Shown piece by piece: positions 3,036 through 60,900 of a DNA stretch of 64,000 nt. Source of the DNA: Octopus sinensis (taxonomy: Eukaryota); NCBI RefSeq assembly GCF_006345805.1, contig NC_042997.1, forward strand, positions 104,904,001 through 104,968,000. The letters run 5' to 3'. Under the pieces are notes generated by a model. The model saw only the letters and a list, made by a program, of their open reading frames with translations. It was not told the DNA's origin and did no database searches. Positions within the stretch are counted from its first letter, which is position 1. Every line of letters starts with the position of its first letter. The translations under genes and the position numbers were made by a program.

Positions 3036-3804
3036 TGTGTATCTATATATATATGAGTGCGTGTGTGCGTGTGTGCCTATGTTTGTGTGTGTCTGTGTTT
3101 GTGTGTGTGTATGTGTATGTATGTATTTATCTATATGTCTGTGCATATTTATCTATATGTGTGTGCACGCATGTGTTTGAGTATGAGCGTTTGTGTACGT
3201 GTGCAGGTGCAGTACGATCGAAAGGGTAAAATATTTGCTTCGCCACCACGAAGACTTGGGCTCTATCTTACCGCATGCTATCTTGGATAAATTTCAATTA
3301 TAAATTATGCTCCTGCAGATCCAACTTGTGAGTGAAATTCAGTAGGTCAAAAATGTGCAAAAGACCATCGGTTGGATTGTACCGGTAATTTAAAGAGACA
3401 GCCTTGAACCATACTGCCTAACGCTGATTCTACCTGAGAATTATTTTAAGGGTACACCTATCTGTGGAATATTCACCAACTTATACCTTACTTTAGAAGC
3501 ACGTAATGCGTTTTATCGAATCAAATCCTGATCATCAAACGCGTTCAAAGTGTTATAGTCGCGGGAGGGAGAATACTTTTTATGAACAGCTACATATCAT
3601 GACCAATTTTGGACATATTTCTTCTGAAGTACACCGTGGAAACAGATACTCTTCTCTTGTTATCTGGCTTTCTCTCTCTCTCTCCTCTTTACCTTTGTCT
3701 CTCTCTTTCTCCCCCTTACTCTCCCTTAACACATGCATTCAAACACACAGAGACACATGCATTAAGGTGTGTGCGCCTATATACACATACATATACATAT
3801 ATAA

Positions 3805-3875
<71 letters not shown>

Positions 3876-4261
3876 TATATGCATGCTTTTATATATACAA
3901 ATAGAGAGAGAGGCGATGAGAGAGGAAGAGAGAGGAAAAAAAAAGAGGGGAAAGAGATTGAGGCGGGGCGAAAGTGTGACACGTGATTTCAAAGTAATTC
4001 GAAAGTCATTTCTATTCTGTAAATTAGGCAGATTCATTGAAAATTATTTGAGTGAAACATTTGTTTGATACTAACAATGAAGTATATAAAAACCCAAACA
4101 AAAGCGGAAACATTTTACGGAAGCACAGGTTTAGTGAGGCATTATCAAACGGAATAGACTTATATTTCAGACGGAATTTTAAATGAATCAGGCTAAGTTT
4201 TAGGCTGAAGATTGGGGTAAATGAAGCATAACGTCTGAGCAGTTATATTACGTCATACAAT

Positions 4262-5100
4262 TCAGATACAATTTACGTCATACAATTTAGATACGCCTGA
4301 CACAGAACTCCATACTCGTGAACATGTACTCTCGCTATGTTGATGATATCAACATAGTGGTAAAGGCACCCCCACAAGAGAGTACTCTTGAAATAGAAAT
4401 AGAAACTAATACTATGGAGAGCATCCAACAAATAGCTAACTCCATCCACCAGAGTATTAAGGTGAGAATAGACTACGCTACTAAGCACCCTAACCATAGA
4501 CTACCAGTACTAGATACAGAACTCTGGTTGGAAACTGAGAATAATAAAACCCGAATCCTTCATTCACACTATGCCAAACCTATGGCTTCCAAATACTTGA
4601 TCCACCGCAACTTAGCTATCGGGGACAATGCCAAATTCAATATTTTGATGGCAGACCTCGTCAGAATAATGCGAAATGTGTCCCGCATGTGAACCCGACA
4701 GAGTTAAAGAGACGCATACAACATTTCGTTCACCGCATGCACTTCTCAGGTTACAGCCATAAAGAATGGATCATAGTATACAAAGGAGCCATGAAGAAAT
4801 TTGATACTATCATACGTAACGATGGGAATGGGATTTGCCCACTCTATAGGAGCAAGTCATGGAACACTATTGAAAGGACTAAGAAGAAAATAGGGAAGGC
4901 CAACTCTTGGTATGATAGACACAAATACCAGCGTGTCATGTTCGTCGACACTACCCCTAGAGGCGAACTGGCGTACCGCTTTAGAAGGGCCCTAGATAAA
5001 CTTAAGCTAAGGATTAAGGCTGTTGAAAGGTCAGGCAACCCTATCAAATCCCTAATCGGTAGAACCTACCCTTTTAGTAGAACCCCATGTACGGATAGGA
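4262..5100 (+). pseudogene. Penelope-like retroelement RT C-terminal half and linker, frameshifted near 4690
   Basis: Motifs YSRYVDDINIV (RT catalytic), LPVLDTELW, HYAKPMAS, LVRIMRN, MHFSGYS, MFVDTTPRGELA and the Cys linker PCTDRKC are typical of PLE RT/thumb regions. Confidence 0.85.
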
Positions 5101-5290
5101 AGTGTGACGAAAGAACTCTGGCCGAAATAAGATTAAGATTAATGTAAAAAATAAATCAAGCTGGAGCAAATTAACACCAAATATATAGTGCGTGTGTTTT
5201 TATTGGCTAACAGGCAATATGACCATTCTTAGATACAACATCTGTTTCAACACACGATTTCGCATCAAGAATCTTGCAAAACAAATATAT
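5099..5290 (+). mobile_element. PLE terminal repeat (pLTR-like) segment carrying the 3' half of a hammerhead motif
   Basis: Closely similar to 20414-20600 and related to 18745-18890; directly abuts the PLE ORF. Confidence 0.75.
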
Positions 5291-5406
5291 AAACGTAAAA
5301 ATTTAGATACACTTTTAACACATATACATAGAACACAGAGGCACACACGCACAATGCATACACATGTTTAATAAAGAATATAAATTTATTACATAAATAA
5401 ATTTAA

Positions 5407-15360: not shown

Positions 15361-15396
15361 CCAATATTTCGGGACATACAAGTCCCTTCTTCAGGG
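15361..15396 (-). ncRNA. Minimal type-I hammerhead ribozyme-like motif (PLE-type)
   Basis: Minus strand reads CC-CTGAAGA-A-GGGAC-TTGTAT-GTCCC-GAAA-TATT-GG: intact CUGANGA and GAAA boxes, a 5-bp stem II and palindromic AATATT in place of stem III. Confidence 0.6.
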
Positions 15397-15419
15397 TTAA
15401 AAAGGAACCATCCTTGGAA

Positions 15420-18508: not shown

Positions 18509-18529
18509 GTATTTATGATAGCATATATA

Positions 18530-18888
18530 TATTGTCGTATTTTGGGATGATCATTTTTTTTTTTTGCCCAATAAACACGTGCATTATGTTTTTTTCACTC
18601 GTTTATTATAGTTCTTATTTTATTATTTCAACTCATGTCCATTGTCCAGAAATTTTTCGTCACACACATGTGACCTCGTGAGCGACACTTTTCCTTTTCG
18701 TGTGTGTTTTTGCTCCATTACTCCATGGGAATGGACATCTGTTAAAATAAGAACAGTGATAAACGAGTGAAGAAAATAAATATATATAGTGCGTGTGTTT
18801 AAGTGGCAAAAAAAAAAAAGCGACTATCCCGAAATCAACAATATCTGTTTCAACACACGATTTCACATCAGCAATCTTGCAAAACGAA

Positions 18889-18892
<4 letters not shown>
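18530..18892. mobile_element. pLTR-derived foldback element with a decayed hammerhead
   Basis: Arm ~18530-18643 is the diverged reverse complement of ~18728-18843. The right arm and tail match 5185-5288 and 20490-20600. A hammerhead-like motif lies on the minus strand at 18644-18686. Confidence 0.7.
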
Positions 18893-18955
<63 letters not shown>

Positions 18956-20124: not shown

Positions 20125-20393
20125 GTCAACAAAATTATATTAAATTAAATACAAAAAAAAGAAAGAACAAAAAAATAAGTAGGTATAAACACATGAACAA
20201 AATAAATAAAAGCAAATTAAACGAACGTGAATAAATAAGGGATACAGATAATACAGACACCCCACACACACACGCTCTTACTAAACATATACACACATAG
20301 GGTTATACGCATGCGCAAATAAAGACACAGTAGGAATACAAAATACAACATGGCTAGTAAGGAAGACACACAAATAAGAAAGAAGAAAGCAAA

Positions 20394-20438
20394 GGACCAC
20401 TGCTGACGTCACAGAAGTGTGACGAAAGAACTCTGGCC
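20394..20438 (+). ncRNA. Minimal type-I hammerhead ribozyme-like motif in a pLTR
   Basis: GGACCA-CTGCTGA-C-GTCACA-GAAG-TGTGAC-GAAA-GAAC-TC-TGGCC: stem I CCA/TGG, a 6-bp stem II and a UC cleavage dinucleotide. One core deviation (A6 to C). Confidence 0.6.
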
Positions 20439-20600
20439 GAAATACGATTAATGTAAAAAAGAAAATTAAGCTGAAACAAATTAACACCAAATATACAGTG
20501 CGTGTTTTTTTATTGGCTAAACTGGCAACATGACCATCCCCAAATACAACAATATATGTTTCAACACACGATTTCACATCAAGAATTTTGCAAAATGAAT
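20394..20600 (+). mobile_element. Solo PLE pLTR-like segment
   Basis: Closely matches 5099-5290, which lies downstream of the PLE ORF. Confidence 0.75.
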
Positions 20601-20642
20601 ATATATATATATATATATATAGCTAGCTAGATAGATAGATAT

Positions 20643-26037: not shown

Positions 26038-26858
26038 TAATTACACGAACTAGATGTTTGAGAGTTCATATCAGCATCGTGTCCAGAGCCAAGGAGATGT
26101 GTTTGTAATAAAGAACGAAGCTATTACTTTACTACCCCACAAGGGGCTAAACACAGAGAGGATAAACATGGACAGACAAATGGATTAAGTCGATTATATC
26201 GACCCCAGTGCGTAACTGGTACTTTTTCAATCGACCTCGAAAGGATGAACGGCAAAGTCGACCTCTGCGAAATTTGAACTCAGAACGTAGCGGCAGGCGA
26301 AATACCTGCTTCTTTACTACCCACAAGGGGCTCTACACAAAGAGAGGACAGACAAGGACAGACAAACGGAGTAAGTCGATTATATCGACCCCAGTGCGTA
26401 ACCGGTACTTAATTTATCGACCCCAAAAGGATGAACGGCAAAGTCGACCTCGGTGGAATTTGAACTCAGAACGTAACGGCATACGAAATACCTATTTCTT
26501 TACTAACCACAAGGGGCTAAACATAGGGGGGACAAACAAGGACAGACAAAGGGATTAAGTCGATTACATCGACCCCAGTGCGTAACTGGTACTTAATTTA
26601 TCGACCCCGAAAGTATGAAAGGCAAAGTCGACCTCGGCGGAATTTGAACTCACAACGTAACGCAGACGAAATACCGCAAAGCATTTCGCCCGGCGTGCTA
26701 ACGTTTCTAATGATCACGATATCCTGCCTAGCCTCTTAATCTAATTACACGAACTAGATGTTTGAGAGTTCATATCAGCATCGTGTCCAGAGCTAAGGAG
26801 AAGTGTCTGAAATAAAGAACGAACCAATGACCACGATATCTTGCCTAGCCTCTTAATC
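26038..26858. repeat. ~117-bp tandem duplication whose first copy is interrupted by a SINE trimer
   Basis: 26038-26123 plus 26709-26741 match the uninterrupted copy at 26742-26858. Confidence 0.85.
26124..26708 (-). mobile_element. SINE family B head-to-tail trimer
   Basis: Three ~185-200 bp units, each with CACAAGGGGCT...TCGACCCCAGTGCGTAAC...AATTTGAACTCA; only the rightmost retains the 5' head. Confidence 0.9.
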
Positions 26859-57974: not shown

Positions 57975-60900
57975 AGAATTATGTCAAATGCTACTGAATT
58001 CGACGCTCGCGTACAAAAGTTTAATCTGAAAAGCTTTAAAAATACGACGTCCCTATTTGGCTGCAATTTATTTAATGAAGCACAAAGTAACGTTCATCAT
58101 ATAACTATAAGGTTTTTCGTTCTGGTTTGCAAGATTCTTCATGTGAATTTTTGTGTTGAAGCAAATTATGCTGTGTCTGGGGTGAGTTATATTGTCTTAA
58201 TACCTTTATTATGTAACACATCCACCGGTTCGATTTCCACTCATTTATTATTTATGGGAATCCGTAGTAAACATCCATATACAAAGTCAACACCTATTGA
58301 CAAGGTACCCAATACCTAGGGTCTATTTCTCGTATCCAATCTCATCTACAACAAGCCGTTACAAACTCTGCATATATCTGATAATCTCTCACTACGTCCT
58401 TATCACCAATGTGCATCACTTATATCCATCTTACATACCGACATTCCACAGAGAGCGCTGGGGTGCATCATGTCAGCTATTTGATCTGATCTCCGCTAGT
58501 TGATCCATCAGAAATAGATGGCCTAAAACAATCGACTGGGAATTGTTACCGCACACTTACTAATACACAACTAAAACTCACAGCTCGAAGTTTCCCTAGT
58601 GATTAATTGCTGCATCTACAAACTATGACCACCACAATATCACCTGCAAGGCCATTATCTGAAATGAAATTGATGCCTGCGTGCATCGTACAGCTTCCCA
58701 AACCGTAGTCGATCCTTTGGATCGCTTGCCAAAATGATTTCTACTAATTTTGCGGAATCTTCCTTTGTTCTACTCGTCAAACATGATTGTTTGTTTAGAA
58801 GTCACCTCTTAGAAGCCCAAAGTTTCATTACTCGCTATGCGCTCTTCTCTACACACATTAGATAAACCTCTTCCAAACCTACCCACTTCGTCCCTACCGA
58901 CTTCATTATCACACACGCATAGATACTATGTGCGAAAGTGCTCTCGGTCGCTTCATTTCAAAAACTTCACCAGCTTTCACAATGTCTTTTTAATAATCCT
59001 TAAACAAAGCATCCAGAAATAGTACATATTGCCACCAAACAACTAAATTTCTCTTTCCTTTCTCTCTCTCTCTCCCTCGCTCATTCTCTTTCTCTCTCGT
59101 TCTCTCAAGCTCTCTCGCTCTCTCTCGCTTTCTCTCTGTCTGTTTTTCTATTTGTCTCTCTCTCCCTCTCTCTAAACATAAATGTTTCTCATTCTTTGGA
59201 AATAGTCTACAATATGTTCCCATTCCTAGAAGAGCAACGATTCTTACAGTGGTAACTATTGTCCTATCATGTTCATTTATTTTCATTTCGAATGTGTTTG
59301 AGGCAGCTTTTAAAGATAACCTTCTCTCTCCTTCTCTCTCACAACCTGATAATCGCTAGTACGGTTTCGGAAATCCAGATTTATAGGAGTCCTACTTTTC
59401 TATGTCACTCACCACTGACGTTACCATTGACATCAACAGAATGTGTCTGGAATGATAATTTTCTGGCAAAAGCCCACACCCTTGAGACCCTACAAACCCC
59501 TGTCTCTTGGAAAGTTGACTTTATCACAATCCATAATGTATAAAATCTGGTTTGTCCAACAGTTTGGTTTAACATTTTTATCATATATTCAAGTATTTAT
59601 GATTTAAAAATACCTCTATAACATTAATCATACCTTGAGCTAGCACTATTTTATACAGATTAAAATGTTAATTTCCTAATGCTAATATTACAGTGAGAGG
59701 GCAGTGGTATATGCAAACTGGATAGTTAATTAGTATTACACATTTTGTTTACTGAAGAGGAAGAAAATTAGTTTATAAATAAGGATAACATACTAATATT
59801 CGTATTTCTAATATTCTTTTCTATGGCTTTGGTAGTAACCGTAATATCCTGACTGTAATAGCTCTCCAGATGTTCTCTTTTCTTAAGCGAGGAAGCATGT
59901 GTATGAACGTGTTCTTCAAGTCAGATATGCAGCTTATGAATGTTGCCACCGGTGTAAGACTCGCCAACTTCTTTCAAAGCCATGTTGTACATCACGTAGA
60001 CCTGTAAATGTTAGCTCACATTGTTAATGAGGCCATTGCCTAATACACATGTATTTTTGCCGTGCGTGGGCCCACTCCGACATAAACATTTTTTTTGGAA
60101 GGTTTACAGTGTGTCAGCTGTATACTCAATCAGCACTCTACGACTAACCTGACTAATTATAGTAATTGTTCTCTCATTAGAGTGCAGCAGTTTTAGAAGA
60201 CAAAGATTGTTGTTGAAGGTGTGAAGTTTCAACGTTTTAATTATTTCAAACTAGGTTAGTTATTCATTTTTCTGACCGTAGTGAGACTAAGTAGCATTAG
60301 ACTATAGCTATTAATAGTGCACATAAACTCAGACAGAATTGAATTGTTTAGACCTAATTTGCATAACATTGTAATTATGGAAAATGGGTATAAATAATTA
60401 CGAGAAACACAACACAAAGTTTTTACACAGATCTAAGGTTGACTTACAAGTGTACATTTTTCATAAAATCAAGTATTTAGCGTTTCTGTAAAAGTACATA
60501 TTGCTGTAAAATGATATATGTGACAGAGATTTGCCTGATTGGGCGAAGGAGATCAGTCTGAAGATATTCAAAGATTTAGTGCCATTTCCTCAAATCTTCT
60601 TGGCTTACTTTTCCTGACTGCACAGAAAACAATAGCTTATAGATATCTATGCCAGACACAATTTGGTACAGAAACACACTGACTTAATGAAGCGCCGAAA
60701 CTATTCAGGACAATATATTTTTCTAGTCACAGGAAGTAAAATAAGAGTATTTTCTTTTCACAGCAATACTGAAATAGTTTATAAGAAAACTTACATCAGT
60801 AAACCTGCTTAACATCTCTCTCTTACACTCTCTCTCTCACCCTCTTTTCCTCACTATCTCTCTCTCCCTCTGTCTTTCTCTCTCTCTTCTGCTTCTGTCT

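What the first reader, a model, noticed from the sequence alone, without database searches (positions are those of the whole stretch)
20394..20600. Hammerhead-bearing pLTR family dispersed as mini-elements, with conserved stem II and variable loop
Seen: this segment recurs at 5099-5290, 18530-18892 and here. The copy here folds as a minimal type-I hammerhead (CUGCUGA-C-GUCACA-GAAG-UGUGAC-GAAA-GAAC-UC). The more diverged copy at 18644-18686 (minus) keeps the identical stem II GTCACA/TGTGAC and GAAA-N4-TC-TGG but has a different tetraloop (TGTG), as expected for structural constraint. Known: PLE pLTRs carry minimal hammerheads that cleave best as dimers. Inference: this is a non-autonomous, retrozyme-like ribozyme element family. 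Both copies have a core substitution and may be dead.
Basis: partly seen in the sequence, partly recalled or inferred. Interest (0 to 1): 0.75.

Follow-up and report, generated by a model that had tools for sequence, protein, structure and literature searches.

The report
Penelope retrotransposon ends, hammerhead core mutated
This repeat is the broken-off end of a protein-coding Penelope-type jumping gene that carries a known kind of tiny hammerhead ribozyme motif, not a separate non-coding element; its youngest and most numerous copies share a change in a normally fixed core letter, so the element likely keeps spreading with little or no self-cutting.

Summary
The repeat and the minimal hammerhead fold are real; the reading as a non-autonomous retrozyme is not supported. 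The segment is the 3' pseudo-LTR plus the first ~27 codons of a Penelope-like element (RT, CX4CXXC linker, GIY-YIG), with full pLTR-ORF-pLTR copies in the genome. Copies end at two fixed sites inside the ORF start, have variable 5' ends and 5' inversions, and are not tandem arrays. The window copy (20128-20605) is a decayed stump with private A6C and 9a changes. The 5099 copy is the tail of an internally deleted RT-bearing insert with an 11-bp TSD. The 18530 copy belongs to a sister family; its TGTG loop is private, and stem II shows no covariation. Of more interest, the younger subfamilies fixed A9-to-C (2399 exact motifs versus 591 canonical), the youngest also C17U, while the ORF stayed under purifying selection (dN/dS 0.11-0.13). 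Cleavage is untested. The scan noted core-mutated young Penelope subfamilies before, in other genomes.

The parts
20128..20605 (+). 5'-truncated copy of the 3' end of a Penelope-like element (family A, older subfamily): 3' UTR/pLTR, hammerhead, first codons of the ORF; (TA)n on both sides
   Evidence: 87% over 491 columns to a longer, endonuclease-bearing copy; flanks
20394..20438 (+). Minimal type-I hammerhead motif with private A6C (20403) and G-to-C at the extra base (20407), which is predicted to pair with G12; predicted cleavage after 20433
   Evidence: A6C in 15 exact motifs genome-wide, this combination once
20530..20605 (+). Start of the element's ORF (ATG at 20530) up to the outer fixed 3' end (about +82); +26 to +82 is the PLE 'tail'
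   Evidence: reading frame continues in full-length copies; end mapping
20350..20393 (+). Leader between the preferred 5' boundary of short copies (44-71 nt before the core) and stem I; inferred start of the pLTR transcript
   Evidence: 5' end clustering; promoter role is inference
4295..5105 (+). RT C-terminal part (YVDD motif), thumb and start of the linker of the same element; frameshifted
5099..5299 (+). 3' half of the hammerhead to the outer 3' end, joined to the coding part by an internal deletion of about 770 nt with 7 nt of overlap
4284..4294 (+). 11-bp target-site duplication, left copy
5300..5310 (+). 11-bp target-site duplication, right copy
18527..18726 (-). Sister family B, inverted arm: leader, hammerhead (18644-18688, private G5C and loop change), ends at the inner 3' site
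18731..18900 (+). Sister family B, direct arm: starts just after the hammerhead, ends at the outer 3' site in (TA)n

Best explanation
The segment is the hammerhead-bearing pseudo-LTR end and ORF start of a protein-coding Penelope-like retrotransposon, scattered as thousands of 5'-truncated copies that were likely made by the element's own reverse transcriptase from uncut RNA. Shown: unit of about 4.4-4.6 kb with one ORF (RT, short CX4CXXC linker, GIY-YIG with CCHH), a hammerhead about 100 nt before the ATG in each pLTR, two fixed 3' ends at about +26 and +82 of the ORF, 5' inversions, insertion mostly into (TA)n. Inferred, by analogy with Poseidon of Anolis: the protein nicks AT-rich DNA and starts reverse transcription at one of two sites inside the ORF start. 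Starting at the site in the first pLTR of a transcript copies only the leader, which would give the ~215-275-nt 'mini-elements' with a preferred 5' boundary (likely the transcription start). Starting at the downstream pLTR gives longer or full-length copies. Shown: the source lineage changed A9 to C, later also C17 to U, and kept spreading with a selected ORF. Inferred: this weakens or abolishes cleavage, so cleavage is likely not needed for spread, while stem II and the rest of the core are kept for another reason, likely as a fold bound by the element's protein.
For: Upstream of longer copies lies a GIY-YIG frame. 21 of 29 RT loci carry the unit downstream. Direct pLTRs with a hammerhead flank the ORF in L062 and in 6 of 16 regions chosen for the ORF N-terminus. 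Homologues of 890-1325 aa at up to 48% identity keep the linker cysteines and endonuclease residues; one scores Pfam GIY-YIG above cut-off. 3' ends of 58 copies: 33 at +17 to +36, 21 at +67 to +85, 4 before the ATG, none beyond; 38 run into a microsatellite; 20 have an inverted copy upstream. 5' ends: 24 of 58 at -71 to -44; in a set chosen without regard to the hammerhead 15 of 33 nearby ends fall there (p = 1e-4), and only 2-3 of 59 within 3 nt of the cleavage site (p = 0.25-0.53). Exact motifs: C9 2399, A9 591, G9/U9 66, C9+U17 687, controls 0. ORF divergence from the group majority: A9 4.7% (13 copies), C9+U17 0.9% (14); dN/dS 0.13 between them at dS 0.28, and 0.11 within the C9 lineage; no stop in these majorities. 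The sister family has A9, and the tree rooted on it nests the C9+U17 clade (support 100) inside family A. In 3 of 4 public runs, labelled as three organisms, A makes up 9-14% of depth at position 9. PMC11167929 shows internal RT starts, the tail, and transposition without hammerhead cleavage in vitro.
Against: No cleavage or transposition assay. I found no measured rate for A9C, so 'weakened' rests on A9 being a consensus core base (PMC3088659) and on recalled structure; protein or dimer assistance could rescue it. No copy with an unbroken ORF was seen among 23 long regions (longest stop-free stretches 748-795 aa), so present activity is not shown. Pfam hits on the element's own fragments stay below cut-off (RVT_1 E = 3e-4; no GIY-YIG hit). 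The oldest C9 copies mix with four A9 copies at low support, so a single origin of C9 is not proven. Exact-motif counts favour young copies. The transcription start is not mapped; the 5' cluster could be an RT stop. Persistence of an invariant stem II and GAAA after A9C also fits residual cleavage.
Confidence: 0.82

Rival explanations
1. Non-autonomous retrozyme-like element: short hammerhead units replicate on their own through self-cleaved, circular RNA and borrow PLE enzymes.
For: Short copies far outnumber full ones: 3328 exact leader motifs against 64 candidate places for the ORF N-terminus. Short copies share a 5' boundary. PMC7229834 and bioRxiv 10.64898/2026.07.22.740005 link retrozymes to PLE pLTRs.
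Against: No tandem arrays: 2 of 58 loci (one pair, 479 bp apart) have a second direct hammerhead. Unit ends do not coincide with the cleavage site. Short copies are interspersed with coding copies in every subfamily. The hammerhead is of the minimal PLE type.
Confidence: 0.04
2. Same element, but the C9 core is a working variant: cleavage is slow alone and restored by dimer formation or by the element's protein, and is still under selection.
For: Between families A and B (dS about 1.4-1.8) stem II, the U-turn and GAAA are unchanged and the stem I closing pair covaries. They also stay unchanged along the whole C9 lineage (dS about 0.2-0.3). U17 still fits the NUH rule (PMC3088659). The Anolis hammerhead cleaves only with its protein (PMC11167929). 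Predicted pairing of C9 with G12 is low (0.07-0.08).
Against: A9 is a consensus core base. The stem III hexamer of family A cannot form a full palindromic duplex (two central A-A mismatches). No pile-up of copy ends at the cleavage site.
Confidence: 0.25
3. The short copies are plain random 5' truncations, and the cluster of 5' ends is a pause site of the reverse transcriptase or an alignment effect, not a transcription start.
For: The sequence just upstream is AT-rich and repetitive, so local alignments can end there. A second, weaker cluster lies at +41 to +70. 5' truncation is general in PLEs (PMC8557442).
Against: The boundary falls at the same short motif in many copies and at the equivalent place in family B (12 of 37). 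Penelope has an internal promoter in its pLTR (PMC2377424).
Confidence: 0.3

Closest known systems
Minimal hammerheads (min-HHR) in pLTRs of metazoan Penelope-like elements (Cervera and De la Pena 2014, PMC4209133; seen: parts 1-2 of 4, abstract to start of methods)
   Same: Type I, short helix I, long helix II, unpaired base between 9 and 10.1, G10.1-C11.1, rudimentary helix III; mostly single and tied to truncated PLEs; pairs on opposite strands 100-700 bp apart.
   Different: The most numerous subfamilies here have an uncompensated A9C; that paper reports a compensated U3-A8 core variant. Loop III of family A is not palindromic (family B's is, with G-U pairs).
Poseidon of Anolis carolinensis, PAc (Frangieh et al. 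2024, PMC11167929; seen: parts 1-2 of 4, main text)
   Same: Two fixed 3' ends inside the ORF start defining a tail, AT-rich targets, hammerhead at the pLTR-ORF junction, no sign that cleavage sets copy ends.
   Different: Tail about 56 nt; ATG about 100 nt after the cleavage site instead of inside the hammerhead; Zn-finger-like linker present; ORF longer (about 1340 codons with a low-complexity insert in L062).
Nematis and Neptune clades of C-terminal-endonuclease PLEs (Craig et al. 2021, PMC8557442; seen: Introduction, passages, supplement rows of Fig. S2 and File S1, part 57 of 59)
   Same: RT followed by CX2-5CxxC linker and GIY-YIG with CCHH; (TA)n targets; partial tandems, 5' inversions, tail.
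   Different: Linker spacing is short like the Nematis rows, not long like the Neptune rows; the RT region reads TDKSG and LRKDHK, which none of the rows seen matches exactly. Clade not settled by a tree. It is neither a Naiad (endonuclease is C-terminal) nor a Hydra (CCHH present).
Animal non-LTR retrozymes (PMC7229834, passages; bioRxiv 10.64898/2026.07.22.740005, part 1 of 5 and passages)
   Same: Type I hammerhead in a short dispersed repeat related to PLE pLTRs.
   Different: Retrozymes are non-coding tandem arrays of 150-450 bp, each unit with a hammerhead. Here the unit is part of a coding element and is not arrayed.

Membership tests
EN+ Penelope-like element | Single ORF with RT and C-terminal GIY-YIG endonuclease | tested here: met
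   YVDD RT motif then VVY...YVG with conserved R, E, H, N; homologue scores Pfam GIY-YIG above cut-off; own fragments below Pfam cut-offs; every copy seen is interrupted
EN+ Penelope-like element | CCHH motif in the endonuclease | tested here: met
EN+ Penelope-like element | Pseudo-LTRs from partial tandems, 5' truncation, inverted 5' copy | tested here: met
   L062 and 6 of 16 long regions with direct pLTRs; 20 of 58 with an inverted copy
EN+ Penelope-like element | Tail between two 3' end sites | tested here: met
   ends at about +26 and +82 of the ORF
EN+ Penelope-like element | RT groups with PLE RTs in a tree with reference families | not tested
   no named reference sequences were on hand as tool sequences
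Nematis/Neptune type | CX2-5CxxC linker before the endonuclease | tested here: met
   C-X4-C-X2-C in both families and all homologues aligned; spacing like Nematis rows
Nematis/Neptune type | Placement in one of these clades by RT phylogeny | not tested
   motif comparison by eye only
Minimal type-I hammerhead of PLEs | Core CUGANGA and GAAA, U16.1-H17 | tested here: inconclusive
   met in older family A (26 of 29 closest copies; 591 exact) and family B; not met in the window copies (A6C, G5C) nor in the C9 subfamilies (2399 exact)
Minimal type-I hammerhead of PLEs | Helices I and II with G10.1-C11.1 and an extra base after position 9 | tested here: met
   stem II 99.3% and stem I 93.9% paired in 23 sequences
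Minimal type-I hammerhead of PLEs | Compensatory changes in the helices | tested here: inconclusive
   stem II: none; stem I closing pair A-U (15) versus G-C, one event between two families; 4 of 500 shuffles, related sequences
Minimal type-I hammerhead of PLEs | Self-cleavage as dimer or with protein | not testable with these tools
   only assembled contigs were available
Non-LTR retrozyme | Tandem arrays of short units, each with a hammerhead | tested here: not met
   2 of 58 loci, one pair; none at the window copies
Non-LTR retrozyme | Non-coding lineage separate from a coding element | tested here: not met
Non-LTR retrozyme | Unit-length linear and circular RNA | not testable with these tools
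   no raw RNA reads listed

The most novel reading that the evidence does not exclude
A Penelope-like lineage kept its hammerhead fold almost unchanged for a very long time (dS above 1.3 between families), then fixed A9C and later C17U in its source elements and went on to its largest and most recent bursts. The 'ribozyme' has become a non-cutting RNA element bound by the retrotransposon protein, loss of cleavage favours spread, and the mini-elements are complete copies of the uncut leader from transcription start to the internal RT start. The dated series A9, C9, C9/U17 in one backbone is a natural experiment on what PLE hammerheads are for.
Probability: 0.35. Interest if true: 0.65.

Novelty: new variant of a known kind. 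Interest (0 to 1): 0.38.

Why it matters
The role of hammerheads in Penelope-like elements is open: they cut poorly in vitro (PMC4209133), are dispensable for insertion in one in vitro system (PMC11167929), and may simply ride along (PMC8557442). This family gives genomic evidence from a living lineage: a core change fixed in the source elements, with age order, copy counts and a selected ORF, and three natural variants that can be assayed side by side. The window copy itself is an ordinary dead stump. The pattern of core-mutated young subfamilies has come up in other genomes in this scan, so it may be general; those notes are unchecked and are not evidence here.

Tried and rejected
Rfam: no hammerhead match in 20330-20600; the window-wide scan showed microsatellite-driven miRNA matches in the 150 of 368 rows shown. 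The repeat finder was swamped by microsatellites. PDB search with a 753-aa fragment: 0 hits. A hairpin spanning the ATG, suggested by sequence conservation between families A and B, was not supported: z from -1.0 to +2.1 in 5 of 5 copies folded. A pile-up of 5' ends at the cleavage site: not found. A6C as a subfamily mark: rejected, 15 exact motifs on mixed backgrounds. TGTG loop as sign of constraint: rejected. A short intron between a GTAAG motif in the leader and stem I was considered from the sequence; about 41 nt, no pyrimidine tract, no such joint among the joints shown; not pursued. Expression: no RNA holder listed; only contigs of runs guessed to be RNA, which cover most of the element but cannot show ends, strand or level. 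Neptune as clade, my first reading, was dropped after seeing the linker spacing. In one search the 'A1' group held four family-B copies and 'A3' two, so the A1 figure (15.6%) is not used. In one search the window row was off by one base and its probabilities are not used. In some searches one reference each distorted a few 5' ends (a short reference; a microsatellite in the reference); both results are given. Literature searches: Penelope-like + hammerhead, octopus + hammerhead ribozyme, Neptune + Penelope + octopus, hammerhead + A9C, core mutation terms, Penelope promoter, Nematis. None listed a paper on this family or on an A9C core in PLEs; the library lacks most subscription papers and Repbase/Dfam were not searchable, so the family may already have a database name. 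Two structure reviews were not held; PMC1636495 gave no passage. Supplements of the bioRxiv preprint were not seen and could bear on retrozyme occurrence in invertebrates.

Full report
OBSERVATION. The window is a microsatellite-rich stretch of a 2.7-Gb animal genome (G000). The host is likely an octopus; this is a guess from the repeat landscape and from earlier notes of the scan, not tested here. The segment 20394-20600 recurs at 5099-5298 (85%) and in part at 18527-18900. It folds with stem I (20394-20399/20434-20438) and stem II (20408-20413/20418-20423), z = -2.4. A genome search gave 3599 candidate places. Of the 29 closest other copies, 26 read CUGAUGA at the core, so the window's CUGCUGA is a later change: A6C occurs in 15 exact motifs on mixed backgrounds, and the window's combination once. 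In the window copy the extra base after position 9 is C and is predicted to pair with G12, the general base (PMC6155905, passages). A6C strongly lowers Mg2+ cleavage in other hammerheads (PMC7151607, passages). This copy is probably dead.

WHAT IT IS PART OF. Copies share the 3' end and differ in 5' extent. Longer ones run into a GIY-YIG frame, and the window itself holds an RT fragment with YVDD at 4295-5105, joined to the 5099 copy by a deletion of about 770 nt; the whole insert has an 11-bp target-site duplication. Of 29 other loci found with this RT fragment, 21 carry the hammerhead unit 1.5-1.9 kb downstream within the fetched flank. L062 shows inverted copy, pLTR, ORF, pLTR, with a hammerhead in each pLTR; 6 of 16 further long regions have direct hammerheads on both sides, the undeleted units being 4.4-4.6 kb. 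The ATG lies about 100 nt after the cleavage site; a homologue aligns from its first residue. Forty homologues were found among longer proteins, up to 48% identical; linker cysteines and endonuclease residues are invariant in the 8 sequences aligned. The linker is short, like the Nematis rows of Fig. S2 in PMC8557442; the clade is not settled. No copy had an unbroken ORF; several single-base gaps in one young copy are absent from contigs of four public runs, so some may be assembly errors.

ENDS. In 58 family-A copies picked by the hammerhead motif, 33 end at +17 to +36 of the ORF, 21 at +67 to +85, 4 before the ATG and none further; 38 run into a microsatellite; 20 have an inverted copy upstream; 2 (one pair) have a second direct hammerhead. 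Public contigs show loose (TA)n ends at the same two places. This is the PLE tail, which in Anolis Poseidon lies between two internal RT start sites (PMC11167929). 5' ends cluster 44-71 nt before the core: 24 of 58; in a partly overlapping set of 94 ends picked by a downstream motif, 16 or 15 depending on references (15 of 33 nearby ends, p = 1e-4); and 12 of 37 in family B. They do not cluster at the cleavage site (3 or 2 of 59). Penelope has an internal promoter in its pLTR (PMC2377424, passages), so I infer that the cluster is the transcription start and that the short 'mini-elements' are full copies of the leader. Short copies are as close to ORF-linked copies as to each other, so there is no separate non-autonomous lineage. 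The window copy (478 bp) extends past this boundary and is a plain truncation.

THE 18530 COPY AND CONSTRAINT. It belongs to a sister family B with majority core CUGAAGA, loop GAUG, a different stem I and loop III. Its TGTG loop and G5C are private. Stem II is identical in both families, so it shows conservation but no covariation; the stem I closing pair changes from A-U to G-C. With dS about 1.4-1.8 between the ORFs (about 205 codons, only three B copies), identity of core and stem II does show selection on the source elements.

THE CORE CHANGE. Among 27 hammerheads found through the RT, position 9 was A in 14, C in 11, T in 2. Exact motif counts are C9 2399, A9 591, G9/U9 66, position 7 other than U (mostly family B) 527, C9 with U17 687; all controls 0. 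Subfamilies form a ladder: B (12% from majority, 15 copies), A9 groups (5.1% and 3.5%; 10 and 9 copies), C9 (median 3.2%), C9/U17 (0.9%, 11 copies); the ORF gives the same order. A tree of 44 ORF-linked copies rooted on B has A9 copies at the base, a later C9 clade with high support and C9/U17 monophyletic; the earliest C9 copies mix with four A9 copies at support 56. dN/dS between majorities is 0.13 (A9 vs C9/U17; 481 codons, dS 0.28) and 0.11 within the C9 lineage (541 codons), with no stops. Of 30 loci found with the ORF N-terminus, 21 showed a hammerhead, 20 with C9 (the query was a C9 copy). In three of four public runs A is 9-14% of depth at position 9; the fourth has very low depth. A9 is part of the consensus core (PMC3088659, section 8 and passages; PMC7151607); I found no rate for A9C, so reduced activity is inferred.

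MECHANISM. Shown: structure, two 3' ends, 5' cluster, lineage order, selection on the ORF. Inferred: target-primed reverse transcription from two internal sites on uncut RNA; leader-only copies as the commonest product; weak or no cleavage in the C9 lineage; retention of the fold for protein binding. The main rival is a working, assisted C9 variant.

COMPARISON AND NOVELTY. PLE minimal hammerheads, their dispersal as truncated copies and opposite-strand pairs are described (PMC4209133). The element passes the PLE tests run here and fails both retrozyme tests that could be run. What I did not find in print is this family or an uncompensated A9C core fixed in an expanding PLE lineage. Earlier notes of this scan report core-mutated young subfamilies in other genomes and a related case in this one; none matched this sequence. 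They are unchecked leads.

VERDICT. Observation partly confirmed, interpretation partly supported. The window copy is ordinary; the family is a new variant of a known kind that makes an open question testable. Interest 0.38.

Noticed in passing
window 15362-15399, minus strand: A second, unrelated minimal-hammerhead-like motif with intact CUGAAGA core, 5-bp stem II and GAAA; probably another PLE family.
   Followed up: no
G000, loci L128-L157 and listing: At least three other recurrent minimal-hammerhead families with different stems II and palindromic loops III; 87 matches against 33 for the control.
   Followed up: no
window 58099-58182 (minus) and about 1178-1229: Very old 3' tips related to the ORF start of this element.
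   Followed up: partly
window 26121-26675: Three tandem copies of a 186-bp unit, 87% alike.
   Followed up: no
L160/L161 (G000:C1:12471226 and 12471705): Two direct hammerhead copies 479 bp apart, the only such pair among 58 loci; partial tandem or assembly duplication.
   Followed up: no
L239 (G000:C17:58533500-58543400): Two head-to-tail 3.9-kb units, 99% alike, with three direct hammerheads and one inverted.
   Followed up: partly
ORF start, window 20494-20600 and all families: The 30 nt before and the first 80 nt of the ORF are conserved at the nucleotide level between families whose ORFs differ by dS above 1.3; likely the protein-binding and RT-start signal, but no stable fold was found.
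   Followed up: partly
L062 ORF, oriented positions about 3480-4360: Long Asn/Ser/Gly-rich low-complexity stretch with triplet repeats inside the ORF, between the N-terminal domain and the RT.
   Followed up: no
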